From a virus, in IMG/VR virus record IMGVR_UViG_3300021376_000042, positions 6,790 through 70,789 of that record: 64,000 bases of DNA; one strand, given 5' to 3'. Below the pieces are notes generated by a model. The model ran no database searches. It was not told the origin of the DNA and saw only the letters and a list, made by a program, of their open reading frames with translations. Positions 2,819-18,787 of the stretch are shown here, piece after piece (within the stretch, counting starts at the first letter, position 1; the number at the start of each line of letters is the position of its first letter). The position numbers were made by a program, and so were the translations under genes.

Positions 2819-3436
2819 ATGAAGAAATTCCTCGACTTTCTACAAGAAGAAATCGCTCACAATAAAGGTCTGCATGTATTCGATGTGGACGATACTCTCT
2901 TTCACACGACTGCCAAGATTCGCGTCATGAAGGGGAAGAAGCAAGTTGATTCTCTTTCCAACTCTCAATACAATACGCATGAACTTCCTGATGGTCATCA
3001 TTATGATTATTCAGAATTTCGTTCATCTGAAAAGTTTGCGAAAGAATCTTCTCCAAATGCTCGCGTTCTCAACAAAATGAAAAATCTTCATGACAAAACG
3101 AAGAAGGCTGGCGGCAAGGTCATCATCAATACTGCTCGCGCAGACTTCGATGACAAAGATAAATTTCTTGACAAGTTTCGTAAGCATGACGTTGACATTG
3201 ATAACATTCATGTTCATCGCGCAGGAAATTTAAAAACAAAAGGCACTGTTGCTGAGAAAAAGGCGAGCATTATTCGCGATCATCTCAATCAAGGGAACTA
3301 CTCGCATGCTTCATTGTATGATGACAGTGAACACAATTTAAAAGCATTCTTAGATCTCAAGAAAGATTTTCCAAAGGTGCGTTTCAATGCGCATCATGTA
3401 AAGCCAGATGGGAAGTTTAAACGATACGCTGGGTGA
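2819..3436 (+). CDS. HAD-superfamily phosphatase
   Basis: Motif I FDVDDTLF, motif II INTAR, Lys, motif IV YDDS. Confidence 0.75.
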   Translation: MKKFLDFLQEEIAHNKGLHVFDVDDTLFHTTAKIRVMKGKKQVDSLSNSQYNTHELPDGHHYDYSEFRSSEKFAKESSPNARVLNKMKNLHDKTKKAGGKVIINTARADFDDKDKFLDKFRKHDVDIDNIHVHRAGNLKTKGTVAEKKASIIRDHLNQGNYSHASLYDDSEHNLKAFLDLKKDFPKVRFNAHHVKPDGKFKRYAG

Positions 3437-3775: not shown

Positions 3776-4531
3776 TTGAGTAAGAAGAAACACGGAAACA
3801 CAAATACTTACATCGAAATTACAACAGATACGCTGGAGAAAAAACCGCAGCGCATCAAATCGGCAGAACTTAAAAAGTTCGAGCCATTAACAGAAAATCA
3901 AGCAAAATTCTTTGAGTCATATAAATGTGGCGATTATTTTACAATGCTTTGCGGTTCAGCAGGAACTGGAAAAACTTTTATTGCATTGTATAAAGCATTA
4001 GAAGAAGTGTTAGACAAAACGTCATCATTTCATAGAGTTGTCATTGTTCGCTCAGCAGTTCAATCAAGAGATCTTGGATTCACACCTGGATCCGTTGAAG
4101 AAAAGATGAGCCTTTACGAACAACCATATATGCAAATTTGTCATACTCTGTTTGGTCGCCGCGATGCTTATGATGCATTGAAAGAATGCAATCGTGTTGA
4201 GTTTATCTCTACAAGTTTTATTCGCGGCATGTCTTTCGATGATGCCGTTATTCTTGTAGATGAATGTCAGAACTTGACTTGGGAGGAACTTTCAACTATA
4301 ATGACTCGTGTAGGTTATCGTTCTAAAATTGTATTTTGTGGTGACTATAAGCAAACAGACTTGTATCGGAATAACAAGGACAAGTCTGGAATGAAGAAGT
4401 TTCATGAAATTGCAAAGATGATGAGTTCGTTTACCAATATTGAATTTACGACAGAGGATATCGTTCGCTCAAGTTTGGTCAAGGACTTCTTGATCGCCGT
4501 TGAGAAATACGAAAAAGAAAACAGTGTTTAA
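3776..4531 (+). CDS. phoH: PhoH-like ATPase
   Basis: GSAGTGKT Walker A, LGFTPG, RGMSFDDA.ILVDECQN, GD..QTDL, DIVRS. Confidence 0.93.
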   Translation: MSKKKHGNTNTYIEITTDTLEKKPQRIKSAELKKFEPLTENQAKFFESYKCGDYFTMLCGSAGTGKTFIALYKALEEVLDKTSSFHRVVIVRSAVQSRDLGFTPGSVEEKMSLYEQPYMQICHTLFGRRDAYDALKECNRVEFISTSFIRGMSFDDAVILVDECQNLTWEELSTIMTRVGYRSKIVFCGDYKQTDLYRNNKDKSGMKKFHEIAKMMSSFTNIEFTTEDIVRSSLVKDFLIAVEKYEKENSV

Positions 4532-5195
4532 TCATATTCGTCATGAGTTTCCGCAACTCTTGCAAGAAAATGCGGATGGTAAGCGAGTGTATATTGCGCC
4601 GAATGGAGAAAAGTATCCTTCAGTCACTACGGTGATTGCGGATCACGGTAAAGAAGCAATTCTTGAGTGGCGCAAGAAGGTTGGTGAAGAGAAAGCCAAC
4701 GAGATTTCGCGTAAGGCTACGACTCGCGGCACAAGCGTCCATAAGGTCCTTGAGGCTTATCTAAACAACGAAGATATATCGGGGTTCGAGATGATGCCGA
4801 ACGTCAAGTCTCTCTTTGTACGAATGAAGCAAGAGTTGGACGACAAGGTCAATAACATTCACTGCCTCGAAGATAAATTGTTCTCTCACGAACTTAAACT
4901 TGCTGGCACTGTAGACTGTATCGCTGAGTATAAAGGAGTTCTTTCGGTTATCGATTTTAAGACTTCTGTCAGACTCAAGAAAAAAGAAAACATCGGTGGA
5001 TACTTTATGCAGGGTGCTGCATATGCCACTATGTTCAATGAGATGGCGAATCTTAACATTGATCAAGTTGTAATCCTAATTGGCGTTGATACTGCCAATT
5101 TTTGTCAGACTATGATTGTTCGAGGCGAAGAACTAGCGCATCATCGCCAAGAATTGCAAAAATATATAGATGCATATTGGACAAAAGTTGCTTGA
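4524..5195 (+). CDS. PD-(D/E)XK exonuclease (Cas4-like phage exonuclease)
   Basis: YPSVTTV, RGT.VH, AGTVDCI, IDFKTS, Q..AY; GTG start overlaps the phoH stop. Confidence 0.85.
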   Translation: MFNHIRHEFPQLLQENADGKRVYIAPNGEKYPSVTTVIADHGKEAILEWRKKVGEEKANEISRKATTRGTSVHKVLEAYLNNEDISGFEMMPNVKSLFVRMKQELDDKVNNIHCLEDKLFSHELKLAGTVDCIAEYKGVLSVIDFKTSVRLKKKENIGGYFMQGAAYATMFNEMANLNIDQVVILIGVDTANFCQTMIVRGEELAHHRQELQKYIDAYWTKVA

Positions 5196-5933: not shown

Positions 5934-6512
5934 ATGAAGACAGTCGGCGATAAAATTGAAAAGTTTGTTGTAACTGGTGTAAAGCCAGGAGCACTTGAGC
6001 CTACTGATGCATTTGAAAATATTACAGATCTTTCTTTTGAAGGCAAGTGGAAGGTCATTGTTTATTATCCAAAAGATTTCACATTCGTATGCCCAACGGA
6101 AATTTTGGCATACGATAAGTTGAATAAAGATTTTGCTGATCGCGATGCGGTTCTTCTTGTCGGTTCAACTGACAATGAATTTTGTAAATTGGCTTGGAAG
6201 AATGCGCATGAGGGGTTGAAGAACACCACTTGCTGGATGTTTGCTGATACTCATCGCGATCTCGGCGATCATTGGGATCAAATGAGCGAAGGTCTTGTAG
6301 AGCAACTTGGAGTTTTCTTCAAGCCTGCTGGCGCTGCTCTTCGCGCAACATTCATTGTTGATCCTAGCAATGTGATTCAGCATGTGACGGTGAATAGTCT
6401 TGCAGTTGGACGCAATGCTGATGAGACTCTCCGCGTTCTTGACGCATTACAAACTGGTGAACTTTGCCAGTGTAATCGTGAAGTTGGTGGTAAGACACTC
6501 AAGGATCTGTAA
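5934..6512 (+). CDS. ahpC: 2-Cys peroxiredoxin (AhpC)
   Basis: YYPKDFTFVCPTE peroxidatic motif, RATFIVDP, GRN..E.LR..DALQTGELC; AAGGAG SD before ATG 5934. Confidence 0.92.
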   Translation: MKTVGDKIEKFVVTGVKPGALEPTDAFENITDLSFEGKWKVIVYYPKDFTFVCPTEILAYDKLNKDFADRDAVLLVGSTDNEFCKLAWKNAHEGLKNTTCWMFADTHRDLGDHWDQMSEGLVEQLGVFFKPAGAALRATFIVDPSNVIQHVTVNSLAVGRNADETLRVLDALQTGELCQCNREVGGKTLKDL

Positions 6513-6619
6513 TGAAGAACGGTCTCGAATTTATAAAGGAGTGGGGGTTGCTTTTAGTTCCTTTTATAGTTTTAGGTCTATTTTGGCTTGGTATACATTT
6601 TACAAACATTCTCTACTAA
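6512..6619 (+). CDS. Small single-pass membrane protein, 35 aa (not in ORF track)
   Basis: TAATG-coupled to ahpC; MKNGLEFIKEWGLLLVPFIVLGLFWLGIHFTNILY. Confidence 0.6.
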   Translation: MKNGLEFIKEWGLLLVPFIVLGLFWLGIHFTNILY

Positions 6620-6630
6620 AGGAAATACAA

Positions 6631-6879
6631 ATGAAAAAGTTTATTCTCGCTCTTGCTCTCGTTTCTGTTCCAGCATTGGCTCAGGATCGTGTAGCGCAAT
6701 ATGACTTTGACAAAGATGGCAAAGTTTCTTTTGAAGATGTGAATCGTTTCTGCACAGTTTCAAAGGCACTCTTTGATCGTGCTGATAAGAACAGTGATGG
6801 ATTCTTGACCAACGCCGAAATGCGCACTGCGAAAGAATATCTCTTTTCACGTTGCATGGAAATACCAAAGAACGGCTGA
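6631..6879 (+). CDS. Secreted EF-hand protein
   Basis: Signal peptide MKKFILALALVSVPALAQ; EF loops DFDKDGKVSFED and DKNSDGFLTNAE; two Cys; AAGGA SD. Confidence 0.8.
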   Translation: MKKFILALALVSVPALAQDRVAQYDFDKDGKVSFEDVNRFCTVSKALFDRADKNSDGFLTNAEMRTAKEYLFSRCMEIPKNG

Positions 6880-6916
6880 TACCTAAATATTGCTACCTTT
6901 AAAAAAGGAGTAAGAT

Positions 6917-7075
6917 ATGTCTGACGTGAAACAAGTAAAGTGTGGTTGTGGTCGTAGTCCAACAGGTTACTGCGTTGGTCTACATAAAATGACAAATGAA
7001 CAATATAAGGCTCATCTTGACCAACAGCAGAAATCATTGAACGAACAGACCAAACCACAATTTCTAGTTGATTAA
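6917..7075 (+). CDS. CDGSH-like iron-sulfur/zinc-finger protein, 52 aa (not in ORF track)
   Basis: AAGGAG SD; MSDVKQVKCGCGRSPTGYCVGLHKMTNEQYKAHL..., a Cys3His pattern resembling CDGSH. Confidence 0.7.
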   Translation: MSDVKQVKCGCGRSPTGYCVGLHKMTNEQYKAHLDQQQKSLNEQTKPQFLVD

Positions 7076-7318
7076 TGGTAGTAAACCTTTGACTAAAGGT
7101 GTTTCGGACGTGGGTTCGACTCCCACCTTCTCCACCATCGACGGGGAAGAAATGGCTTCGACGGGGCAAGTAATAACCCAAAGGCTACCCGAAAGGTGAC
7201 GAACGTAATTCGCACAAATCAAGTAAACGCAAACGATGATGTTTACGAAATGGCTCTCGCTGCTTAATTGCAGTATGAGATTACCAGAGTTGACCGCTTG
7301 GTAACAGAAAGGTCAGGA
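7076..7318 (+). ncRNA. ssrA: Circularly permuted (two-piece) tmRNA; acceptor piece about 7076-7137, coding piece from 7143; tag ANDDVYEMALAA at 7229-7267
   Basis: T-arm GTGGG-TTCGACT-CCCAC plus CTTCTCC-ACCA precedes GGGGAAG; these pair with a G3:U70 wobble; P2 pairings between pieces; tag ORF ending ALAA-stop; 3' pseudoknot. Confidence 0.93.
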
Positions 7319-7319
7319 T

Positions 7320-7346
7320 GGTGGGCGAAATGCCCACCCTTCTTTA
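7320..7346 (+). terminator. Terminator after tmRNA
   Basis: GGTGGGC-gaaat-GCCCACC followed by a T-rich tract. Confidence 0.65.
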
Positions 7347-7382
7347 TATTATGACACACACAACACACAAAGGAGATATAAA

Positions 7383-7625
7383 ATGACACCATTTGAAATT
7401 CGATTAGAATTAGTTAAGTTGGCAAAGGATATGCTTTCTGAGGAATATCATTCCAAAAGAAACATGGTTGAGCAAGAGTGGAACAATGAAGTTGGTGCTG
7501 CTATAAATGTTAGCAGAGAACCACCAAAGGCTCCGACTTTGCCAAACTATTTCTCAGAGCATGACGTCATTGCAAAGGCAATTAGCCTCAATGAATTCAT
7601 TTCTGGAAATAAGCAGTTCCTGTAA
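7383..7625 (+). CDS. Conserved phage hypothetical protein
   Basis: MTPFEIRLEL.K.AKDML pattern; AAGGAGA SD. Confidence 0.75.
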   Translation: MTPFEIRLELVKLAKDMLSEEYHSKRNMVEQEWNNEVGAAINVSREPPKAPTLPNYFSEHDVIAKAISLNEFISGNKQFL

Positions 7626-7639
7626 GACTCAATAGAGTC

Positions 7640-7672
7640 AGAGGGTGGTGGTGCGAACCACCACTCTTTTCT
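7640..7672 (+). terminator. Rho-independent terminator
   Basis: GTGGTGGT-gcga-ACCACCAC hairpin followed by T tract. Confidence 0.65.
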
Positions 7673-7699
7673 TTCCACTGCAATAATGGAGACCTAAAC

Positions 7700-8326
7700 A
7701 TGAATGCAGTAGATATATTACATCATGTAGAAAAATATTTTGATCGCAATCATAGTTTGTTTTGTATGTGGGGTGGGTTGTTCGCCTTTATCTTTTTTGC
7801 AATGTATGTACCATTCAGTATGGTAGATCGTATGCAAAACAAACTTGAAGCACAACAAAATGCTAACGTGCTTCTACATTCCGAAATTGAAACTCTCAAT
7901 CGCAAAGTTGAGTTTCTAAATCTTTCTTATGAAAGAAAACAAGCAGTCATGAAAGAAGTTGAATGCTTGGCTCGTAACATCTATTACGAAGCAGGATCTG
8001 AGCCACGCGCTGGCAAGATTGCCGTTGCTGAAGTCACAATGAATCGTGTAAAAAGTCGACAGTTCCCAAGAACTGTATGCGGTGTTGTCTATCAAAAGAC
8101 CAAAGGGACTTGTCAATTCTCTTGGGTTTGTGAAGATAAAAAAGGTATTCGCAGTCGTAGTATGTGGCGCGAATCATTGCAGATCGCTGAAAATATTTTG
8201 ATTTCTAAACAGAAGTACGGTATAATAGGTAACGCATTGTATTTCCATGCAGACTACGTTGATCCTGCATGGTCGAATCAAAAGATTTTGATAAAGCAAA
8301 TTGGCAATCACATATTTTATCATTGA
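7700..8326 (+). CDS. Membrane-anchored cell-wall hydrolase (SleB/Hydrolase_2 family)
   Basis: N-terminal TM and coiled coil; CLARNIYYEA.SE, VA.VTMNRV, CQFSW, YFHADYV.P.W, IGNHIFY. Confidence 0.88.
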   Translation: MNAVDILHHVEKYFDRNHSLFCMWGGLFAFIFFAMYVPFSMVDRMQNKLEAQQNANVLLHSEIETLNRKVEFLNLSYERKQAVMKEVECLARNIYYEAGSEPRAGKIAVAEVTMNRVKSRQFPRTVCGVVYQKTKGTCQFSWVCEDKKGIRSRSMWRESLQIAENILISKQKYGIIGNALYFHADYVDPAWSNQKILIKQIGNHIFYH

Positions 8327-8332
8327 GGTTTT

Positions 8333-9358
8333 ATGAGAATTATTGAAGACGTGAAGTTAGATTACAAGGATGTTCTCATTACACCTAAACGATCTACTCT
8401 TGCTTCGCGCAGTGAAGTTTCTCTTGAGAGAAAATTTAAATTCAAACATGGCGGTGAGTGGTCTGGCGTTCCAATTATTGCTGCTAACATGGATGGAGTT
8501 GGCACCTTTGAGATGGCTGAGGAACTCAACAAGCATAAGTGTTTAGTTGCTGTCACCAAACATTATCCTGAACATGATTTGATCAATCATTTCGCATTGA
8601 GATTACATAGCAGCATTTATTCCTTGGGTATCTCAGATGCTGATCTGCAGAAGTTCGATAATGTCTACTACTCTGCTGTTCTTCATCAAACTATGAAAGT
8701 TTGTGTTGATGTTGCGAATGGATATACACAAGCATTTGTTGATTTCGTTTCACGATTTCGCGACAAGTATCCATCAGCAATACTGATGGCTGGTAATGTT
8801 GTCACACCAGAAATGACAGAGGAATTAATTCTATCTGGTGTCGACATCGTGAAAGTTGGCATTGGTCCTGGCTCTGTGTGCACAACACGCAAGATGACGG
8901 GGATCGGCTACCCGCAGTTGAGTGCAGTAATTGAATGCGCTGACGCTGCTCATGGTCTCAAGGGTCATATCATAGCGGATGGAGGGTGTTCCGTTCCTGG
9001 AGACATTGTGAAAGCATTTGCTGCGGGTGCCGATTTTGTGATGCTTGGTGGAATGTTGGCTGGTCACAAGGAAGGTGGCGCATCTTCATTCGGTGACAAT
9101 AAGTTCTATGGTATGAGTTCAGATACCGCCATGGATCTTCATAATGGTGGTGTGGCTAACTATCGAGCAAGCGAAGGTAAGACAGTTGAGATTCCATATC
9201 GTGGAGAAGTAAGCAGAACACTACAAGATATTCTTGGTGGTCTGCGTTCGGCATGTACTTATGTTGGAGCGAGTGAATTGAAAGAGTTGAGTAAGCGAAC
9301 TACCTTTGTTCGTGTTACACAACAATTGAATAATTCCTTGAGTGCTTATGAGATCTAA
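8333..9358 (+). CDS. guaC: GMP reductase
   Basis: [46 protein letters not shown]. Confidence 0.93.
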
Positions 9359-9359
9359 C

Positions 9360-9581
9360 ATGGCAAATCGCGAAGAAAAAAATAAATTTTCCATGATGAT
9401 CATGAATATGGCAATTGATGAAAGAATTGATCATATGGATGCAATCGCCACATACTGCGAGCGTAATAATCTCGAGATTGAAGTTGCTGCGACGCTTATC
9501 AATGAAGCCCTCAAAAGTATAATTGAAGGTGAGGCAATGGAATTGCGTTTTCTCCCACGAGGTAGTAGATTGCCTTTATGA
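9360..9581 (+). CDS. gp33: Late-transcription coactivator gp33
   Basis: MDAI..YCE.N..EIE..A.LI...LK..IE.EA..L.FL; upstream of gp59. Confidence 0.85.
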   Translation: MANREEKNKFSMMIMNMAIDERIDHMDAIATYCERNNLEIEVAATLINEALKSIIEGEAMELRFLPRGSRLPL

Positions 9582-10168
9582 ATGGATATGATCTGTACGG
9601 ATTGTATCAAGCAATAAAACTGCACTTCACATCCGAGACATACAATTTTTTTCAATACGACGGCAAGACAAGGATATCAGTCGATGCGTTTCAGAAACGT
9701 CGTGACAAGTTTTTGTTCCACCGTCTTGCGCGCAAGTATCGCGACGATGAGATGATTCCATTTTTGGTTGCTAATTTTGTACACAGTGATGATAAATTCA
9801 CCAAAACTCTTTTGGAAGAAGAATCAGAGGAAATCTTCAGAAACTGGAAAAAAATAACTGATTCTATGAGTAAAGTTTACCAAGAAGACCTTATTCATAT
9901 ATGTCCAGATGCAACCCAATTTAACGATTTATTCAAGGTTATTGATGGGCAATTCCCAAAACTTTTAAACCTTTATATGCAGAAAGAAGTTACCGTTGAA
10001 ACAATGGTAATTTTAAATAACCTTTTTAATTATATTGCAATCTGGGATAAAAAAATATCTGATGATATTATATACCCAAAAATATCTCGCAAGATTCGGA
10101 AGTATGGTGCCTTTCTTTCTGTTAACACAGAAAAATATAAGGAGTTGACGAAAAATTTGTATAAATAG
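9578..10168 (+). CDS. gp59: Helicase loader gp59
   Basis: Y..Y.AIKLHFT...Y.FF.Y.GK, F.KRRDKF.F; synteny 33-59-32. Confidence 0.88.
   Translation: MNGYDLYGLYQAIKLHFTSETYNFFQYDGKTRISVDAFQKRRDKFLFHRLARKYRDDEMIPFLVANFVHSDDKFTKTLLEEESEEIFRNWKKITDSMSKVYQEDLIHICPDATQFNDLFKVIDGQFPKLLNLYMQKEVTVETMVILNNLFNYIAIWDKKISDDIIYPKISRKIRKYGAFLSVNTEKYKELTKNLYK
10160..10167 (+). promoter_or_regulatory. T4-type late promoter for the homing endonuclease
   Basis: TATAAATA overlapping the gp59 stop codon. Confidence 0.75.
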
Positions 10169-10228
10169 AAGTGCAGGTCGCGATGCTGGAAACATCCACC
10201 TGCTCTAATGCTAAAGAGGAGCACCAGC

Positions 10229-10774
10229 ATGTCTATTTATTACATCTACGCATACATTCGTTCATCGGATGGAACCCCATATTATATCGGCAAAGGATCG
10301 GGCAATCGTGCTTGGTCGAATCATGGTGTAAATTTACCAAAAGATTATTCTAGAATAATAATTATGGAATCTGGTTTAACTGAACTCGGTGCATTTGCTT
10401 TAGAACGAAGATATATCAGATGGTATGGGCGCAAAAACAATGGAACTGGTATTCTTCGAAATATGACTGATGGTGGCGAAGGAACTAGTGGATGCATATA
10501 CACAGAAGAATCAAGAAACAAAATTGCTGCAGCAAATAGAAAGCGTAAACAATCTGAAGAAACTCGTAAAAAAATCAGTGAAGCAAGAAAAAAACAATCA
10601 GCACCGTTCCAAGGAAAAACTCATTCTATCGATTCTAAGATTAAAATAGGTAATTCTTGCAGTCAGCGAATGAGGGGGAAGGAAAAAACCGAAGAACACA
10701 AACGCAAAATTGGTGAAGTCATGAAAATTGTTAGGAAACAAAAGGCTTTACTTTTGAAACAGAATACTATATAA
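10229..10774 (+). mobile_element. Free-standing GIY-YIG homing endonuclease with NUMOD3-type repeats (seg-like)
   Basis: YYIYAY..PYYIGKG..RA, E...[15 protein letters not shown], repeated S/TEE..RKIS motifs; GAGGAG SD. Confidence 0.85.
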
Positions 10775-10861: not shown

Positions 10862-11755
10862 ATGACGCTATCTAGTCTAAAGAAGGGTTCATCCCTTGAT
10901 AAGTTGAAGAAGGCAGTCGAAGCCTCTTCAGCAGGTGCTGGTGCCAAGAGTTCTGATGATCGTTTTTGGCAACCAGAAGTAGATTCTGCTGGCAACGGAT
11001 ACGCAGTTATCCGCTTCCTCGATACACCAGCAGTTGACGGTGAAGATGGTCTTCCTTGGGTACAAATCTGGAATCATGGTTTTCAAGGTCCAGGTGGTTG
11101 GTACATCGAGAACTCTCTCACCACTCTCGGCAAAACTGATCCTGTTTCTGAATACAACACTGTTCTTTGGAACAGCGGCATCGAAGCCAACAAGGAAATC
11201 GCACGTAAGCAAAAGCGTAGGCTGACTTACATTGCAAATATTCTTGTGGTCTCTGATCCGAAGCGTCCTCAGAATGAAGGTAAGGTTTTCCTTTACAAAT
11301 TTGGCAAGAAGATTTTTGATAAGATCAAAGAAAAACTTGAGCCGCAGTTCGAGGATGAGAAGCCATTGAATCCTTTCGATTTTTGGAAGGGTGCAAACTT
11401 TAAGGTCAAGATTCGTAACGTCGAAGGCTATCGCAACTATGACAAGTCGGAGTTTGATACTGCCGCTGCATTGTTCGAAGGTGATGATGCGAAGATTGAA
11501 AAGGTTTGGAAGTCTGCATATTCACTCAAGGATTTTTTGAAGCCTGAAAACTTCAAGTCCTATGATGAACTCAAGGCAAAGTTGAACAAGGTGCTAGGTG
11601 CTGGTGGTGTTGCTGGTGCAACAGCCAAGCAAGTTGAAGAAGAGGAAGCCGCTGCTCCTGTGATTCGCTCTGCTCCTGCCAAGAAAGTCACTGCTGAAGA
11701 TGTCAGTGCTGACGATGATGACATGGCATTTTTTGAAAAACTTGCCGCTGAGTAA
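10862..11755 (+). CDS. gp32: Single-stranded DNA-binding protein gp32
   Basis: DDRFW, GNGYAVIRFL, WYIENSLTTLG, FGKKIFDKI, YRNYDKSEF, acidic C-tail. Confidence 0.95.
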   Translation: MTLSSLKKGSSLDKLKKAVEASSAGAGAKSSDDRFWQPEVDSAGNGYAVIRFLDTPAVDGEDGLPWVQIWNHGFQGPGGWYIENSLTTLGKTDPVSEYNTVLWNSGIEANKEIARKQKRRLTYIANILVVSDPKRPQNEGKVFLYKFGKKIFDKIKEKLEPQFEDEKPLNPFDFWKGANFKVKIRNVEGYRNYDKSEFDTAAALFEGDDAKIEKVWKSAYSLKDFLKPENFKSYDELKAKLNKVLGAGGVAGATAKQVEEEEAAAPVIRSAPAKKVTAEDVSADDDDMAFFEKLAAE

Positions 11756-11783: not shown

Positions 11784-11810
11784 AGGCGCACTTCGGTGCG
11801 CCTTTTTTTT
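11784..11810 (+). terminator. Terminator with cUUCGg tetraloop between convergent genes
   Basis: AGGCGCAC-TTCG-GTGCGCCT followed by a T run. Confidence 0.88.
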
Positions 11811-14800
11811 ACATCACACCAACAGAAGTAAATGCCGACGGGTGCGAGAAGTCGCGAGCAAGAGCACGATTGAACGAATTATCATTTGAGCGTGCAGATG
11901 CTTTCGGTAAATTTTGTTTCGGTGGCGTCGTTGGTTGCTGAGATCCGCCACCAGAATTATTCACAACAACTGGTGCTGGTGCTGCTTGCATTGCTATTTG
12001 ATTTGCTGCTTGTTGCGTAGACTGTTGTGTTGCTATAGCACCAAGAGTATCTTGCGTTGGTGTAATTGTTGGACCGTATGATTGTTTTGCGGCGACCATC
12101 GGCTTTGAGTCAACTGCAGTTCCATCTGACATTGTTGCTAGTGGATCAGAAGATGCTACAGACGGAGTTGCTGCTGGTGCAGATGCACCTTTACTAGATG
12201 CATCAGCTGCTTGCATTGTCCCAGCTGGTGGTGCACTACCACCACCGCCGCCACCAACTTTAGCATCTTGACCCTGCGCAGCCAATGATGGTTCTGGCTC
12301 AGGACCACCAGCTGCAGCTGGTGTTGCTTCTGGACCTGCTTTCAATGCATTTGGATCTTTCATATAAGATGCGAATAACGATTCTCTATGAGATAACCCA
12401 ATAGATCCACCATTGATTGCTTTAGTTGCTTTAGCAGTGTCTTCACCAGGAATTCCTTTATCCATGACATTCTTTTTATAAAATGCAGCTGCGATATCTG
12501 CAGCTGTCCCTAAACTGCCAGCCATATCAGGATTGCTGACTAGATCAACTCCAGCAAGCTGACCGAATCGCTTGTAGTTGTCTTTGCCTGTTAATTGAAT
12601 TAATCCGCGACCACGATATTTGTATCCATCACCCGACTCTGGTGGTCCATTACCCATACGATTTGCGTAAACTCTATTAGCAATAGCAATAGGCGAATAT
12701 TCTTCAAGTGCAGCGATTGCGGGATCTTTATAATACTTTGGAAATATCTCCATCAATCGTTTTGCAGAATAACGAAGATTTTCTTCTACAGTTTTAAATC
12801 CACCAGACTCATGATCGAGCTGTGCCATAAATTGCGCTAAATGTGGACCAGTAATTCCATATTTTGCTGCTGATGCAAGCGCAGCATTTTTAGCAGCGCC
12901 AGAATCAACTTTACCTCTTTTTGCAGCTGCAGGTCCTAAACGTCTAGTTGGTCCGCTACTCGTTGCGACTGGTGATGCTGATGGCGCTGATGTTGCTGCT
13001 CCACCACCTGCTGCCATTGCTGGTTCTTTTGCTGCTTGAATTGCTGCAGCAGGTCCCGTCGGTGGCGGTGGCGCTGCAGCACCACCTGATGATGCAGTAG
13101 CAGTCATTCCCGCAGCTGTTCCAGCAGCACCTGCAGTAGCAGCACCTGCTACAGTTTGCGGTTGTCCAGATAACATATTTCTCAGACCTTCGCTGCCAGC
13201 ACCACTCATTGTTGCGCTTATACGTTCGGTCTCAACACCACCACCGCCACCAACAGGAGCGGTAGGCTTAGATTTTTTCCAATTAGATGGCGGATTACTG
13301 AGAATCTCATTTACTTGATTACGATATTCTTCTGGAACTTGCTGTATAGTTTGTTTACCAATAAACACACTGTATGCATAATCTTTAGCAAGTTTACTTG
13401 GAGTATTTGCTGCTAATTCTTTTTCGGCATCGCTCAATGCAGAAAATTCTTTCCATAATTGATAGATATCGTAAGCAGTGCTCAAGGCAAAACCAATTGA
13501 TACTGCAGCTGCAACCCAACCAGCAATAGGAATAGTCGCTAAAGCACCTGCTGATGCCAAACGAGCTCCTATCTTTAACATTAATTTTGGTGCACGTTTT
13601 TCTAGAAACTTTACAAACAAACCCCATACTTTATTTGTTGCAGCTTTTGCTACTTTTTTAACAGGTGCAGCTTTTTTTGATGCTACTGCAGTAACTTTCT
13701 TTACTGGCGCAGTTTTTGCAATTTTTTCTGCCACCTTAACGCCAGTATATGCTCCAATACCAGCTCCAGCAACACTAGCAACCTCAGCACCTGCTTGCAT
13801 AGCAACATCTTTTTTCTGTAATCCGATTTGCGTTTTGAGCGCTTCAGTGTATTCAGTGCCGCCAGCTTCTCGAGCAGCAATGGCTTCTTGTTTTAATGCT
13901 TCTGGGTCATAAGTATTAATATCCTTATCTCTAAATGCATCAACTGCCTTGTAAGCCAAGTAACCACCAGCTGCTGCACCCAATCCACCTGCTAGCAGCT
14001 TTCCTGCGCCAAATTCACCACTTTTGGCAAATCTTCCTTTCGCATCACGTGGTTGATCTACACCAAAACGACTTCTGTTTGCCGCTAATGTTCTTGCTAA
14101 TTTTTTTGAAGATGTGTCTTTAGTTGTTGGACCTTTAGTTGTCAATTTTCTGGTCGGCGTCTTTGTTTTTGGTCCACGTCTCCCAAGAAGACCGCCGCCT
14201 AATCCAAGTAGATCGCCTAATCCAAATCCAAAACCACCGCCGCCTCCCTCAATTTGATCAAGCAATTCATCAAGTTTTTCATGAACTGTTTTTCCAGTAT
14301 TATCTTCGCCAACTATTTCAACTATTTTTTCGCGTAAGAGTGTTAATGGATCTTCATCTGCACCAATGGCTTTTGTCAAGCGATCGCTTCTTTCTTTTCT
14401 CTTTGTTGCTTCATCTTCTGATGCAAATCGACCAGTGCGAACATTACGAATTCCACCCATTGCACCAATTCGCTCATCAAAATAGTAACCTTTCTTTAGA
14501 GAGATTTGTTCTGATTTGGGTGTTGAAATCTCAGAAGGTTGTATTGGCATTCTTTTTCTGCCAACCAAATTGCTTATATCTTTAATTTGTTTAGTCTTTA
14601 ACGAGCTCTTATCTTTCGATTTATTTTGAAATTTCTTTAAAAATTTTTCAGCAGACTCAACTTTTGAAGGATCTTCTTTAGCAAAAATATTCGCCAATGC
14701 CTGACCAACTTCATCGCTAAAAATACCCATCAACAAACCAGATTGTAGTCCTTTTGTCTTTTTTCTGGCTGTGTAAAATAGATCACGAACCTCAGCTTCG

Positions 14801-14931
14801 CGTTTTTTGGCTTCTTGTGGATCGGTAACACCTTTTGTTTCCGATTTAATTGCCCTTTCTAATTCTGTTAGACCAACTTCAAGTTTCTTTTTTGCCTTAG
14901 AAACTCTTCCGCTGACTTTCATTGTTGCCAT
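11809..14931 (-). CDS. Tape-measure/baseplate hub-like protein with a glycoside hydrolase family 19 (lysozyme/chitinase-like) domain
   Basis: Helical Ala/Gly-rich with hydrophobic segments; AQFMAQLDHESGGF, YRGRGLIQLTGKDNY, TKAINGG; downstream of gp26/gp51. Confidence 0.72.
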   Translation of the reverse strand: MATMKVSGRVSKAKKKLEVGLTELERAIKSETKGVTDPQEAKKREAEVRDLFYTARKKTKGLQSGLLMGIFSDEVGQALANIFAKEDPSKVESAEKFLKKFQNKSKDKSSLKTKQIKDISNLVGRKRMPIQPSEISTPKSEQISLKKGYYFDERIGAMGGIRNVRTGRFASEDEATKRKERSDRLTKAIGADEDPLTLLREKIVEIVGEDNTGKTVHEKLDELLDQIEGGGGGFGFGLGDLLGLGGGLLGRRGPKTKTPTRKLTTKGPTTKDTSSKKLARTLAANRSRFGVDQPRDAKGRFAKSGEFGAGKLLAGGLGAAAGGYLAYKAVDAFRDKDINTYDPEALKQEAIAAREAGGTEYTEALKTQIGLQKKDVAMQAGAEVASVAGAGIGAYTGVKVAEKIAKTAPVKKVTAVASKKAAPVKKVAKAATNKVWGLFVKFLEKRAPKLMLKIGARLASAGALATIPIAGWVAAAVSIGFALSTAYDIYQLWKEFSALSDAEKELAANTPSKLAKDYAYSVFIGKQTIQQVPEEYRNQVNEILSNPPSNWKKSKPTAPVGGGGGVETERISATMSGAGSEGLRNMLSGQPQTVAGAATAGAAGTAAGMTATASSGGAAAPPPPTGPAAAIQAAKEPAMAAGGGAATSAPSASPVATSSGPTRRLGPAAAKRGKVDSGAAKNAALASAAKYGITGPHLAQFMAQLDHESGGFKTVEENLRYSAKRLMEIFPKYYKDPAIAALEEYSPIAIANRVYANRMGNGPPESGDGYKYRGRGLIQLTGKDNYKRFGQLAGVDLVSNPDMAGSLGTAADIAAAFYKKNVMDKGIPGEDTAKATKAINGGSIGLSHRESLFASYMKDPNALKAGPEATPAAAGGPEPEPSLAAQGQDAKVGGGGGGSAPPAGTMQAADASSKGASAPAATPSVASSDPLATMSDGTAVDSKPMVAAKQSYGPTITPTQDTLGAIATQQSTQQAANQIAMQAAPAPVVVNNSGGGSQQPTTPPKQNLPKASARSNDNSFNRALARDFSHPSAFTSVGVM

Positions 14932-17593: not shown

Positions 17594-18787
17594 ATGGCAA
17601 TCGTCAACAGCCCTCTTCGCAATCAAATTATGAGCGATCCGAAGGTCGTCAAAAATCCCCAATCCAATGCGAATAAAAATCCTAGTGGACCGCAAGCAAA
17701 ATTGAGCAGTAGCCCCTATAACGTACAGGATTTAAGATTTCCTAAAGAAGTTGCAATCAATGCAAAGAATAAACATTGGATAAGATTTACGCCTACAATT
17801 CAACAAGCAGGTTCATATAAAACCAGTTTTGCTAATGGCGGATTAGGTTCTGCTGATGCAAACAGAGCAGAATTTGGCGGGCAACTAGGTTCTGGTGCCG
17901 ATCCATTGAGTGCTGGTGCTGCATTAGCAGGTTTAGGTGCTATTGGTATTGCCGAAGGTGCCGTTACTGGCGATTTTGGTAAAGGTGGTGACATTTTAAA
18001 GAATGCATTGAGTAAAAGTAAATTAGGATTAGGAAAGGCAATTGGATTAGGATTATCCGTCGTTGGCTCTTTAGCAGTTACAGGTGCAGTTGTTGCTGGA
18101 ATAGATCTAACTCGTAAGACGCGCCGAGCTGCATCTTATATCTCGCTCTATATGCCAGACACAATAAATGTGACTGTTGTAAATGACTATGACCAATTAA
18201 GTTTAACTCAAGCATTAGGAAAGGCAGGTTTGGCAGCTCAATCTGGTGCAGAAATAGTTGGCGGAGAACTGAAAGCAGCTGGTGGCGGCGCAGGACCAGG
18301 AACAGCTGAAATTGGTGGGTTTTTGGCAGAAAAAACTGGTAATTTTGGTTCAGGAATTACTGACGCACTATTATTTTCAGCTGGCTATGCACAAAACCCA
18401 CAAATTGAACTACTTTTTAAGTCTATTCAAAATCGTGAATTTCTTTTCGATTTTAAATTCGTCCCAAAAACACAAGACGAATCTGTCGCAATTATAAACA
18501 TCATTAAGGCATTTCGATATCATGCCGCACCAGAAATTCCAACGATAGGCGGTGGTAGATATTTCGTGCCACCAGATGAATTTGATATTCAATTTATGTA
18601 TGGCGACTCTGAGAATAGAAATATACCAAAAGTTTCAACTTGTGTATTGCAAGGTATTGATGTAAACTATGCTTCTGCTGGTCAATGGACAACCTTCGCA
18701 AATGGTATGCCTGTTGAGATTGCTATGCAACTTCGATTTAAAGAAGTCGAGATTATGCACAAGAAACTTATCGAGAAGGGATACTGA
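17594..18787 (+). CDS. gp48: Baseplate tail-tube cap gp48
   Basis: ISLYMP, NPQ.ELLF....R.F.FDFKF.PK, C.L..I.VNY, L.F.E.E. Confidence 0.85.
   Translation: MAIVNSPLRNQIMSDPKVVKNPQSNANKNPSGPQAKLSSSPYNVQDLRFPKEVAINAKNKHWIRFTPTIQQAGSYKTSFANGGLGSADANRAEFGGQLGSGADPLSAGAALAGLGAIGIAEGAVTGDFGKGGDILKNALSKSKLGLGKAIGLGLSVVGSLAVTGAVVAGIDLTRKTRRAASYISLYMPDTINVTVVNDYDQLSLTQALGKAGLAAQSGAEIVGGELKAAGGGAGPGTAEIGGFLAEKTGNFGSGITDALLFSAGYAQNPQIELLFKSIQNREFLFDFKFVPKTQDESVAIINIIKAFRYHAAPEIPTIGGGRYFVPPDEFDIQFMYGDSENRNIPKVSTCVLQGIDVNYASAGQWTTFANGMPVEIAMQLRFKEVEIMHKKLIEKGY

What the first reader, a model, noticed from the sequence alone, without database searches (positions are those of the whole stretch)
7076..7346. 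Phage-encoded circularly permuted two-piece tmRNA
Seen: the tRNA-like 3' end (T-arm GTGGG-TTCGACT-CCCAC, then CTTCTCC-ACCA ending at 7137) lies upstream of the 5' end (GGGGAAG at 7143), separated by only 5 nt (TCGAC). The two make a 7-bp acceptor stem with the G3:U70 alanine identity pair. P2 pairs across pieces: GGTAG/CTACC, CCTTTG/CAAAGG, TGTTTCG/CGGGGCA. The tag ORF at 7229-7267 reads ANDDVYEMALAA, followed by an H-type pseudoknot (TTACCA/TGGTAA, TGACC/GGTCA). Established: permuted ssrA genes occur in alphaproteobacteria, some betaproteobacteria and marine cyanobacteria, and C-terminal LAA is a ClpXP degron. Inference: the phage supplies its own trans-translation RNA (no smpB in this window, so probably host SmpB), either to sustain ribosome rescue or to replace host tmRNA cut by defence nucleases. 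The layout may point to the host lineage.
Basis: partly seen in the sequence, partly recalled or inferred. Interest (0 to 1): 0.9.

Follow-up and report, generated by a model that had tools for sequence, protein, structure and literature searches.

The report
Two-piece tmRNA gene in aquatic phage
A T4-like aquatic phage carries a genuine back-to-front (two-piece) gene for tmRNA, the RNA that frees stalled ribosomes, but such genes are already known in related aquatic phages, so this is a well-supported new example and not a new kind of thing.

Summary
ARAGORN calls a permuted tmRNA with tag ANDDVYEMALAA. Rfam gives tmRNA_permuted 144.2 bits (cut-off 47) and beta_tmRNA 136.3 bits (cut-off 84).

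The window is an IMG/VR virus record, a T4-like myophage fragment. The 26-mer covering the T-arm, acceptor strand and CCA occurs in 28 viral contigs. All 28 have a permuted tmRNA with an AND...LAA tag. Twenty-six of them have the window's hydrolase gene just downstream. Covariation supports P2, a pre-tag hairpin and pseudoknot stem 2.

No SmpB was found in this record or in 5 related records, one of them CheckV-complete.

Phage two-piece tmRNAs are in print (PMC9004378). Phage Melnitz has one in the same slot, but alpha-type and followed by a glutamine riboswitch. The 5-nt spacer is not new either: Accumulibacter-type bacteria have 4-nt spacers.

The host-lineage inference fails. The viral tmRNAs form their own clade, and beta-type bacterial loci average 61% GC against 38% here.

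This scan has noted phage two-piece tmRNAs many times on other DNA.

Verdict: new member of a known kind, modest interest.

The parts
7077..7137 (+). Acceptor piece of the permuted tmRNA: the 5' strands of P2a/b/c, T-arm (7110-7126), acceptor 3' strand (7127-7133), discriminator A and CCA (7134-7137)
   Evidence: Sequence. Rfam alignments. P2 covariation. The 26-mer 7112-7137 is shared exactly with 28 viral contigs.
7138..7142 (+). Intervening spacer TCGAC, to be removed in maturation; the minimal ('empty') form of a spacer that is 44-186 nt in 16 of 28 relatives
   Evidence: spacer lengths. (short and long forms are interleaved on the tree).
7143..7343 (+). Coding piece: acceptor 5' strand GGGGAAG (7143-7149), D-loop-like AAATGGCTTCGAC, P2 3' strands (7162-7189), pre-tag hairpin, tag frame, pseudoknot, terminal hairpin
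   Evidence: The beta_tmRNA model is matched end to end, 1-331, up to 7343. ARAGORN gene 7045-7358.
7196..7215 (+).
   Evidence: helices 6 and 7: 5 of 7 pairs change on both sides, 97-99% of cells paired. Recovered in the MFE fold.
7229..7267 (+). Tag reading frame: resume codon GCA, peptide ANDDVYEMALAA, stop TAA
   Evidence: All 28 of 28 relatives encode AND...LAA tags. Third-position changes keep Leu-Ala-Ala (CTC/CTT/CTA/TTA, GCT/GCC/GCG) in alignment A1.
7281..7315 (+). Post-tag H-type pseudoknot: S1 7281-7286/7299-7304, S2 7291-7295/7311-7315
   Evidence: S2: 3 of 4 counted pairs change on both sides, 89.5% paired. S1: 71.3% paired with no compensatory change, so it is unconfirmed.
7320..7338 (+). 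Terminal G+C-rich hairpin followed by a T-rich run; terminator-like 3' end of the coding piece
   Evidence: 8 pairs, 6 G-C, tail CTTCTTTATA. helix 11 (2 pairs change on both sides)..

Best explanation
This is a functional ssrA gene of the circularly permuted kind, resident in an uncultured T4-like aquatic myophage.

Shown:
- The gene order is permuted and all tRNA-Ala-like identity features are present.
- The helices that join the two pieces covary.
- The tag frame is kept by selection across a family of at least 29 viral contigs at one conserved genomic slot.
- The phages carry no SmpB.

Inferred:
- The gene is transcribed as one precursor, probably with the upstream small genes, since no sigma-70-like promoter was found just upstream, and it ends at the 7320-7338 hairpin.
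- RNase P cuts 5' of G7143.
- The 5 spare bases after CCA (7138-7142) are trimmed by 3' exonucleases.
- The two pieces stay joined through P2 and the acceptor stem.
- Host AlaRS charges the CCA end and host SmpB delivers the RNA to stalled ribosomes.
- Translation resumes at GCA 7229 and adds ANDDVYEMALAA, whose ALAA end marks the product for host proteases.

The likely benefit is spare ribosome-rescue capacity while host transcription and host tmRNA supply decline and broken mRNAs accumulate during infection.
For: - Detectors.
- Covariation: 19 pairs with two-sided changes (0 of 500 shuffles reach this); 93.1% of cells paired against 40-54% when slid.
- Family: 28 of 28 viral contigs with the 26-mer have a permuted tmRNA with an AND...LAA tag. 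Synonymous third-position variation occurs in the Leu-Ala-Ala codons.
- Same slot: the hydrolase homologue lies just downstream in 26 of 28 loci. PhoH, the PD-(D/E)XK nuclease, gp33, gp59 and gp32 lie around it. Melnitz has its ssrA between the same genes.
- Phage nature: an IMG/VR record with PhoH, gp32, gp33, gp59 and baseplate matches.
- No SmpB in 1 + 5 records.
- Fold: z = -3.69. The MFE structure shows the T-arm, the acceptor stem closed by a 9-nt loop, the pre-tag hairpin and the terminal hairpin.
- Maturation by tRNA-processing enzymes is the published rule for permuted tmRNA genes (PMC11915505, passage read).
- Contigs from RNA libraries of three studies match 7071-7317, with 8 contigs at 99% or more in X3. 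This is compatible with expression but does not prove it.
Against: There is no direct evidence of transcription, cleavage, charging or tagging.

The RNA-library contigs may be carried-over DNA. Their ends at 7137 and 7143 may be assembly-graph branch points between co-occurring relatives with different spacers. Other contigs run across the spacer.

Pseudoknot stem 1 lacks comparative support. No promoter was found just upstream. The T4-type late motif is not near the gene.

The host is unknown, so compatibility with its SmpB and AlaRS is assumed. The record is only about 42% complete, so an SmpB gene elsewhere in this particular phage cannot be excluded, although a complete relative has none.
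Confidence: 0.8

Rival explanations
1. The RNA is a decoy that titrates host SmpB or AlaRS and so inhibits host trans-translation, as proposed for the tRNA-like-domain-only form of mycobacteriophage DS6A. On this reading it is not a working rescue RNA.
For: The phage brings no SmpB of its own, so it must compete for the host's. PMC4131195 (passage read) reports that a tRNA-like-domain-only molecule strongly inhibits tmRNA.
Against: A decoy needs no tag frame. Here the frame, its resume-codon context, the stop codon and the LAA end are kept in 28 of 28 relatives with synonymous changes. The post-tag structures also covary.
Confidence: 0.06
2. The gene matters mainly as a tolerated landing site. 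The excised spacer is a slot where small genes and structured inserts come and go, and the tmRNA itself is of little use to the phage. The window shows the empty site.
For: Spacers are 4-6 nt in 12 of 28 relatives and 44-186 nt in 16 of 28. The short/long state changes at least 8 times on a 23-row tree, and at least 4 changes are forced by strongly supported branches. Two spacers hold a 34- or 50-codon ORF that differs by an in-frame 16-codon indel. Earlier notes of this scan describe the same slot idea on other DNA.
Against: The tmRNA parts outside the spacer are under clear purifying and compensatory selection. The empty-spacer form is common. Slot use and tmRNA function are not exclusive.
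Confidence: 0.06
3. The phage tmRNA replaces host tmRNA that has been destroyed by a host defence nuclease.
For: None from any call. It is compatible with the phage carrying a full tmRNA but no SmpB.
Against: I found nothing in the window or in the papers read that links tmRNA cleavage to phage defence. No RNA-repair pair was looked for next to the gene. The only such hit is a weak polynucleotide-kinase match at 2819-3436.
Confidence: 0.06
4. It is not a phage gene: a bacterial ssrA on a mis-assembled or mis-classified contig, or an attachment-site remnant.
For: ssrA is a common integration site and prophages often carry its 3' fragment (PMC9004378 section 8). One near relative (L065) is filed in a bacterial MAG.
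Against: The gene is complete, not a 3' fragment. It sits between T4-like replication and late-transcription genes in 28 of 28 viral loci. None of 185,579 species genomes holds the 26-mer. L065 is a 1,550-bp, 35% GC contig, which is most simply a mis-binned phage piece.
Confidence: 0.02

Closest known systems
Betaproteobacterial two-piece tmRNA (Rfam RF01850), e.g. Candidatus Accumulibacter phosphatis NC_013194 (locus L080) and other Rhodocyclaceae
   Same: The best-scoring subtype model is matched over its whole length (136.3 bits). Shared features are the permuted order, a very short spacer (A + CTGC/CTGG/CTAC/CTAT in the bacteria; CTAT, CTGC, CTAC or TCGAC in the phage family), a hairpin before the tag, a pseudoknot plus terminal hairpin after it, and a tag that starts AND and ends AA. 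These are the best genuinely bacterial blastn matches: 76-77% over 134-140 nt.
   Different: The phage tags are 12-14 residues (ANDDVYEMALAA), against 10 in the bacteria (ANDERFALAA, ANDEQFAIAA). The viral family forms its own clade (SH-aLRT 95) outside the bacterial beta clade. The exact 26-mer occurs in no species genome. The DNA is 38% GC against a mean of 61%. The gene is carried by a lytic-type T4-like phage without SmpB.
ssrA of Methylophilales phage Melnitz (MZ577097.1 45984-46436; Buchholz et al. 2022, PMC9004378)
   Same: It is a phage-encoded permuted two-piece tmRNA in a related T4-like aquatic myophage (gp32 57.5% identical). It lies in the same slot: PhoH, PD-(D/E)XK nuclease, small ORFs, ssrA, then gp33, gp59, gp32. 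Melnitz has no SmpB either.
   Different: Melnitz scores as alpha-type (alpha_tmRNA 106.7 bits). Its spacer is about 140 nt and is followed by a glutamine riboswitch (RF01739, 52.8 bits). The window's gene is beta-type, has a 5-nt spacer and has no riboswitch match even at E up to 10. blastn finds no similarity beyond the T-arm in any of 50,697 GenBank phage records.
Alphaproteobacterial (Caulobacter-type) two-piece tmRNA, Rfam RF01849
   Same: The gene permutation and the two-piece principle are the same, and the match is above the cut-off (85.9 bits against 50).
   Different: The score is 50 bits lower than for the beta model. The alpha rows group apart from the viral family in the tree, though that deep split is poorly supported.
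One-piece phage tmRNAs (mycobacteriophage Bxz1 group, Bacillus phage G) and the tRNA-like-domain-only form of phage DS6A (PMC4131195)
   Same: These are tmRNA genes carried by phages.
   Different: They have the standard gene order or lack a tag frame. Here the order is permuted and the tag frame is complete.

Membership tests
Circularly permuted (two-piece) tmRNA, Rfam RF04321 | Permuted gene order: T-arm, acceptor 3' strand and CCA lie upstream of the acceptor 5' strand | tested here: met
   CCA ends at 7137 and G1 is at 7143. ARAGORN flags the gene as permuted.
Circularly permuted (two-piece) tmRNA, Rfam RF04321 | Covariance-model score above the curated cut-off | tested here: met
   144.2 bits against 47, model positions 1-213 of 213.
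Circularly permuted (two-piece) tmRNA, Rfam RF04321 | tRNA-Ala-like domain: 7-bp acceptor stem with G3:U70, discriminator A, CCA, 5-bp T-stem with a 7-nt T-loop | tested here: met
   Read. Invariant in 24 of 24 distinct family members, but partly by search design.
Circularly permuted (two-piece) tmRNA, Rfam RF04321 | P2 helices that hold the two pieces together, supported by covariation | tested here: met
   Helices 1-3: 9 of 18 pairs change on both sides, 85-99% of cells paired.
Circularly permuted (two-piece) tmRNA, Rfam RF04321 | Tag reading frame with an Ala resume codon, a stop codon and a hydrophobic ...LAA end, under selection | tested here: met
   (28 of 28 relatives). Synonymous changes.
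Circularly permuted (two-piece) tmRNA, Rfam RF04321 | Precursor is cut into two mature RNAs | tested here: inconclusive
   In one search, RNA-library contigs end at 7137 and at 7143 in run X3, but others cross the spacer. Contig ends may be assembly branch points, and DNA carry-over is not excluded.
Circularly permuted (two-piece) tmRNA, Rfam RF04321 | Alanylation, SmpB binding and tagging activity | not testable with these tools
   Needs biochemistry or proteomics.
Circularly permuted (two-piece) tmRNA, Rfam RF04321 | SmpB partner encoded in the same genome | tested here: not met
   PF01668 has 0 matches in the own record and in 0 of 5 related records. For a phage the partner is expected to be the host's, so this does not exclude membership.
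Beta subtype (Rfam RF01850) | Best score among the three subtype models, matched over the full length | tested here: met
   Beta 136.3 (1-331 of 331), alpha 85.9, cyano 55.6 (below cut-off).
Beta subtype (Rfam RF01850) | Nested within the bacterial beta-type clade | tested here: not met
   In one search the viral family (23 rows plus L065) is a separate clade. Its join to the beta group is unresolved (support 14).
Melnitz-like phage ssrA with glutamine riboswitch (PMC9004378) | Same genomic slot in a T4-like aquatic myophage | tested here: met
Melnitz-like phage ssrA with glutamine riboswitch (PMC9004378) | Glutamine riboswitch at the 3' end, and alpha-type sequence | tested here: not met
   No RF01739 match in 6700-7700 at E up to 10, while Melnitz itself gives 52.8 bits. 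The subtype here is beta.

The most novel reading that the evidence does not exclude
Related T4-like aquatic phages hold an alpha-type tmRNA (Melnitz) or a beta-type tmRNA (this family) in the same genomic slot. The phage beta-type family is a deep clade of its own that shares the peculiar 4-nt CTAT/CTGC/CTAC spacers with Accumulibacter-type bacteria. The boldest reading not excluded is that large aquatic phages are a long-standing reservoir and vector of permuted tmRNA genes. On this reading, whole ssrA cassettes are swapped at a fixed phage locus, and at least one bacterial two-piece lineage (or its short-spacer form) came from phages and not the reverse.
Probability: 0.07. Interest if true: 0.7.

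Novelty: new member of a known kind. Interest (0 to 1): 0.3.

Why it matters
It adds a well-documented beta-type family, found on at least 29 viral contigs, to the known phage two-piece tmRNAs. It shows that the ssrA slot next to gp33/gp59/gp32 is conserved across T4-like aquatic phages while the tmRNA subtype in it differs.

It also gives a clean empty-spacer reference (5 nt) for a family in which the spacer is repeatedly filled and emptied.

It warns against reading host identity from a phage's tmRNA type.

The general phenomenon, that phages supply their own ribosome-rescue RNA but not SmpB, still lacks any experimental test, so a tractable member would be useful. This one has no known host.

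Tried and rejected
1. Near relatives in GenBank phages. blastn of 7040-7360 against 50,697 records gave 10 records, none covering more than 12% of the query (T-arm only). The 3-kb surroundings gave one irrelevant match, to a GMP reductase in a Salmonella record. So no isolate relative of this tmRNA is visible at blastn sensitivity.

2. Glutamine riboswitch as in Melnitz: none at E up to 10.

3. Promoter. No sigma-70-like site was found upstream of the gene in 6300-7076. The only hit lies inside the downstream ORF. The T4-type late motif has 6 matches in the window against 5.1 expected, and none is near the gene.

4. Processing evidence from public RNA runs.
- All 23 runs held under a fifth of the sampled words.
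- Four RNA libraries from four studies were laid as contigs.
- Contigs cover 7071-7317. The flanks 6900-7061 and most of 7332-7628 had no cover.
- In X3, one exact contig ends at 7137, one ends at 7143, and one exact contig runs 7108-7172 across the spacer with 30 nt on each side, just under the bridging rule.
- X4 and X8 hold longer, less similar contigs that cross the spacer.
- Several contigs ending at 7135-7137 continue upstream into unlike sequence, so they belong to other organisms' tmRNAs.
- I do not count any of this as proof of transcription or cleavage, and I name no habitat from it.

5. Host inference from the tmRNA type: rejected.

6. The 5-nt spacer as a novelty: rejected. Of 35 bacterial-labelled loci with N of 7 or less in the layout scan, 21 are Betaproteobacteria or unclassified Pseudomonadota with normal AND... 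tags.

7. Sharkady and Williams 2004 (PMC516066), the paper that described the beta two-piece lineage, is not held. What I say about that lineage rests on Rfam, on my own scan, and on citations in PMC9004378 and PMC11915505.

8. Supplementary Table S1 of PMC9004378, which lists the 53 two-piece phage tmRNAs, is closed. I cannot say whether any of them is beta-type or belongs to this family.

9. Searches for print on phage tmRNA function gave only the papers cited. I found no experimental test of a phage two-piece tmRNA in them.

10. Correction: an earlier count said 13 of 28 short spacers. The correct count is 12 of 28 relatives, or 13 of 29 with the window.
Full report
**What is there**

- T-arm 7110-7126.
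- Acceptor 3' strand 7127-7133, then ACCA ending at 7137.
- A 5-base spacer, TCGAC.
- Acceptor 5' strand GGGGAAG from 7143, giving seven pairs with G3:U70.
- Three P2 segments that pair 7077-7106 with 7162-7189.
- A tag frame 7229-7267 reading ANDDVYEMALAA.
- Two interleaved stems at 7281-7315.
- A G+C-rich hairpin at 7320-7338 followed by a T-rich run.

ARAGORN finds one RNA gene in the 64 kb, a permuted tmRNA with that tag. Rfam matches the general permuted model at 144.2 bits (cut-off 47) and the betaproteobacterial model end to end at 136.3 bits (cut-off 84). The alpha model gives 85.9 bits. The cyanobacterial model gives 55.6 bits, below its cut-off and on the T-arm only. PMC11915505 (passages read) recommends these three older models for subtyping, so the subtype is beta-like.

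**Is it a phage?**

The window is bases 6790-70789 of an IMG/VR virus record of 70,789 bases with a CheckV completeness of 42%. The genes around the tmRNA match several phage families:
- PhoH (3776-4531).
- A PD-(D/E)XK exonuclease (4500-5195).
- A cell-wall hydrolase (7700-8326).
- A GMP-reductase-like dehydrogenase (8333-9358).
- The late-transcription coactivator gp33 (9342-9581).
- The helicase loader gp59 (9578-10168).
- The gp32 single-strand-binding protein (10862-11755).
- A baseplate protein (17594-18787).

gp32 is 59% identical to that of pelagiphage HTVC008M, 57.5% to Melnitz and 56-57% to cyanomyophages. This is therefore a T4-like aquatic myophage without a close cultured relative in that collection.

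**Relatives and comparative support**

The 26 bases covering the T-arm, acceptor strand and CCA occur exactly in 28 IMG/VR contigs. All 28 carry an ARAGORN permuted tmRNA whose tag starts AND and ends LAA, and 5 of the 28 have the identical tag.

tblastn with the window's neighbouring proteins shows the same neighbourhood. The hydrolase lies just downstream in 26 of 28 loci. PhoH, the nuclease, gp33, gp59 and gp32 lie around it wherever the locus is long enough.

- 93.1% of cells pair, against 40.0-54.2% when the 3' partners are slid by 1-3 columns.
- 19 of 55 pairs change on both sides, against 9.0 +/- 1.7 in shuffles (0 of 500 reach it) and 1-7 in the slid controls.
- P2a, P2b and P2c carry 9 such pairs.
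- The pre-tag hairpin (7196-7198/7213-7215 and 7200-7203/7209-7212) carries 5.
- Pseudoknot stem 2 carries 3, and the terminal hairpin carries 2.
- Pseudoknot stem 1 pairs in only 71% of cells with no compensatory change, so I treat it as unconfirmed.
- The T-arm and acceptor stem never vary, partly because of how the set was found.

In the tag, Leu is written CTC, CTT, CTA or TTA and Ala GCT, GCC or GCG while the peptide end stays LAA. That pattern is expected of a translated frame. The single-sequence fold has z = -3.69 and recovers the T-arm, the acceptor stem closed by a 9-base loop, the pre-tag hairpin and the terminal hairpin.

**SmpB**

Pfam SmpB finds nothing in the whole 70.8-kb record. 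It finds nothing in five related records either: a 197-kb relative rated 100% complete, three fragments, and the complete Melnitz genome. The control rang in 12 of 14 known genomes. Dependence on host SmpB is thus a well-founded inference.

**What is already known**

Buchholz et al. 2022 (PMC9004378; abstract, sections 8 and 10 and further passages read) report several relevant points:
- Phage Melnitz has a two-piece ssrA directly upstream of gp33.
- 402 of 18,146 phage genomes had tmRNA genes, with 133 unique forms. Of these, 53 were two-piece, 50 of them from marine or aquatic phages.
- 17 of 47 Melnitz-like contigs had permuted tmRNAs.
- The authors propose maintenance of the hijacked translation machinery, or tagging of host proteins.

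I fetched the Melnitz locus. Its order is PhoH, PD-(D/E)XK nuclease, two small ORFs, ssrA, gp33, gp59..., gp32, which is the same slot as here. Its RNA differs, however. It scores as alpha-type (106.7 bits), has a spacer of about 140 nt, and is followed by a glutamine riboswitch (52.8 bits). The window has no riboswitch match at E up to 10.

PMC11915505 counts 79 unique bacteriophage tmRNAs and 11,946 permuted ones in all. PMC4131195 lists earlier one-piece phage tmRNAs and the tag-less DS6A form that inhibits tmRNA.

This scan itself has noted phage two-piece tmRNAs many times on other DNA, including spacers that hold genes. Those notes were leads only.

**The short spacer**

Among the 28 relatives the spacer is 4-6 nt in 12 and 44-186 nt in 16. 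On a tree built without the spacer columns, the short/long state needs at least 8 changes among 23 rows. At least 4 are forced by strongly supported branches, and the scatter is no more clustered than in shuffles. For example, L009 (4 nt) and L027 (62 nt) are sisters at 100/100. Recombination could contribute to this.

The window has the empty form. Two long spacers hold a same-strand ORF of 34 or 50 codons that differs by an in-frame 16-codon indel.

A very short spacer is not new. Of these, 88 have an ARAGORN tmRNA: 63 Betaproteobacteria, 11 Alphaproteobacteria, 8 unclassified Pseudomonadota, 3 cyanobacteria, 2 Gammaproteobacteria and 1 labelled Ignavibacteria. Twenty-one normal beta-type genes, including the complete genome of Candidatus Accumulibacter phosphatis, have only four bases after CCA.

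**Host lineage**

- No species genome holds the exact 26-mer.
- The best bacterial-labelled blastn match, L065 (80% over 176 nt, same tag), is a 1,550-bp, 35% GC contig binned with an Ignavibacteriaceae MAG. It groups with the viral family and is most simply a mis-binned phage piece.
- The best genuine bacterial matches are Rhodocyclaceae at 76-77% over 134-140 nt.
- In a 110-row tree, 23 of the 24 viral rows form a clade (SH-aLRT 95) and L065 joins them (84). This clade lies outside the bacterial beta clade, with the deeper joins unresolved. The 24th viral row, L026, and Melnitz are long branches near the alpha rows.
- Beta-type bacterial loci average 60.9% GC, against 38.3% for the window and 34.9-42.6% for the viral loci.
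- Together with the published Melnitz mismatch, this means the tmRNA type records ancestry of the gene, not the present host.

**Mechanism**

Shown: the gene anatomy, selection on the helices and the tag, residence in a phage lineage, and the absence of SmpB.

Inferred from the established biology of permuted tmRNAs (PMC11915505):
- One precursor is made.
- RNase P cuts before G7143.
- The five bases after CCA are trimmed.
- The two pieces are held together by P2 and the acceptor stem.
- Host AlaRS charges the RNA and host SmpB delivers it.
- Translation resumes at GCA 7229, and the ALAA-ended tag is recognised by host proteases.

With a 5-base spacer, a single endonucleolytic cut plus short trimming would suffice. 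RNA-library contigs from three studies match 7071-7317, with ends at 7137 and 7143 in one run, but also contigs that cross the spacer. Because these are assembled contigs, and relatives with different spacers co-occur, the ends may be assembly branch points. I do not count them as proof.

**Verdict**

This is a real, probably functional, phage-borne two-piece tmRNA of beta-like type. It is a new member of a known kind. Its novelty estimate and its host-lineage hint are not.

Noticed in passing
window 7315-7665: The 3' end of the tmRNA appears to be interrupted by a cassette of about 330 bases. The hairpin at 7644-7665 and its flanks (GTCAGAGGGTGGTGGTGCGAACCACCAC..CTTTTCTTTCCACTG) closely match the terminal hairpin that follows the pseudoknot directly in most relatives. 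In the window, a different hairpin (7320-7338) and an 80-codon ORF (7383-7625, no PHROG match) lie in between. The ORF has homologues in only 4 of 28 relatives (L016, L017, L028, L032). One RNA-library contig joins 7314 to 7646, which is the cassette-free form.
   Followed up: partly
L010:1955-2059 and L030:3737-3889 (minus strand of the locus): The long tmRNA spacers of two relatives hold a same-strand small ORF (34 and 50 codons, MRYKIVVKAYGKTF...) that differs by an in-frame 16-codon indel. Other long spacers (44-90 nt) have self-complementary ends that could close a stem.
   Followed up: partly
window 10208-10774: A homing-endonuclease-like ORF (phrog_314, E 3e-17) lies between gp59 and gp32. 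tblastn finds it in none of the 28 related loci, where gp59 and gp32 are about 200 bases apart. It looks like a recent insertion in this phage.
   Followed up: partly
window 6917-7075: A 52-codon ORF with a good ribosome-binding site and a Cys-rich motif (KCGCGRSPTGYCVGLH) ends two bases before the tmRNA. It has homologues upstream of the tmRNA in many relatives (up to 96% identity in L024) and no PHROG match.
   Followed up: partly
L129 (genome contigs locus labelled Dechloromonas aromatica MAG): An 8-kb stretch at 33% GC, in a MAG of a genus whose other loci here are about 60% GC, carries a short-spacer permuted tmRNA (tag ANDERYAVAA) on a long branch. It is probably another mis-binned phage contig, like L065.
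   Followed up: no
window 8333-9358: A GMP-reductase-like dehydrogenase gene (phrog_9582, E 4e-110) sits between the hydrolase and gp33. It is conserved at 78-85% in most relatives and looks like an auxiliary nucleotide-metabolism gene of this phage group.
   Followed up: no
window 11809-14931 (minus strand): A 1,040-codon ORF has an endolysin/lysozyme-like domain at residues about 690-890. It lies at the switch in strand and GC skew, and may be a tail-associated cell-puncturing lysozyme.
   Followed up: no
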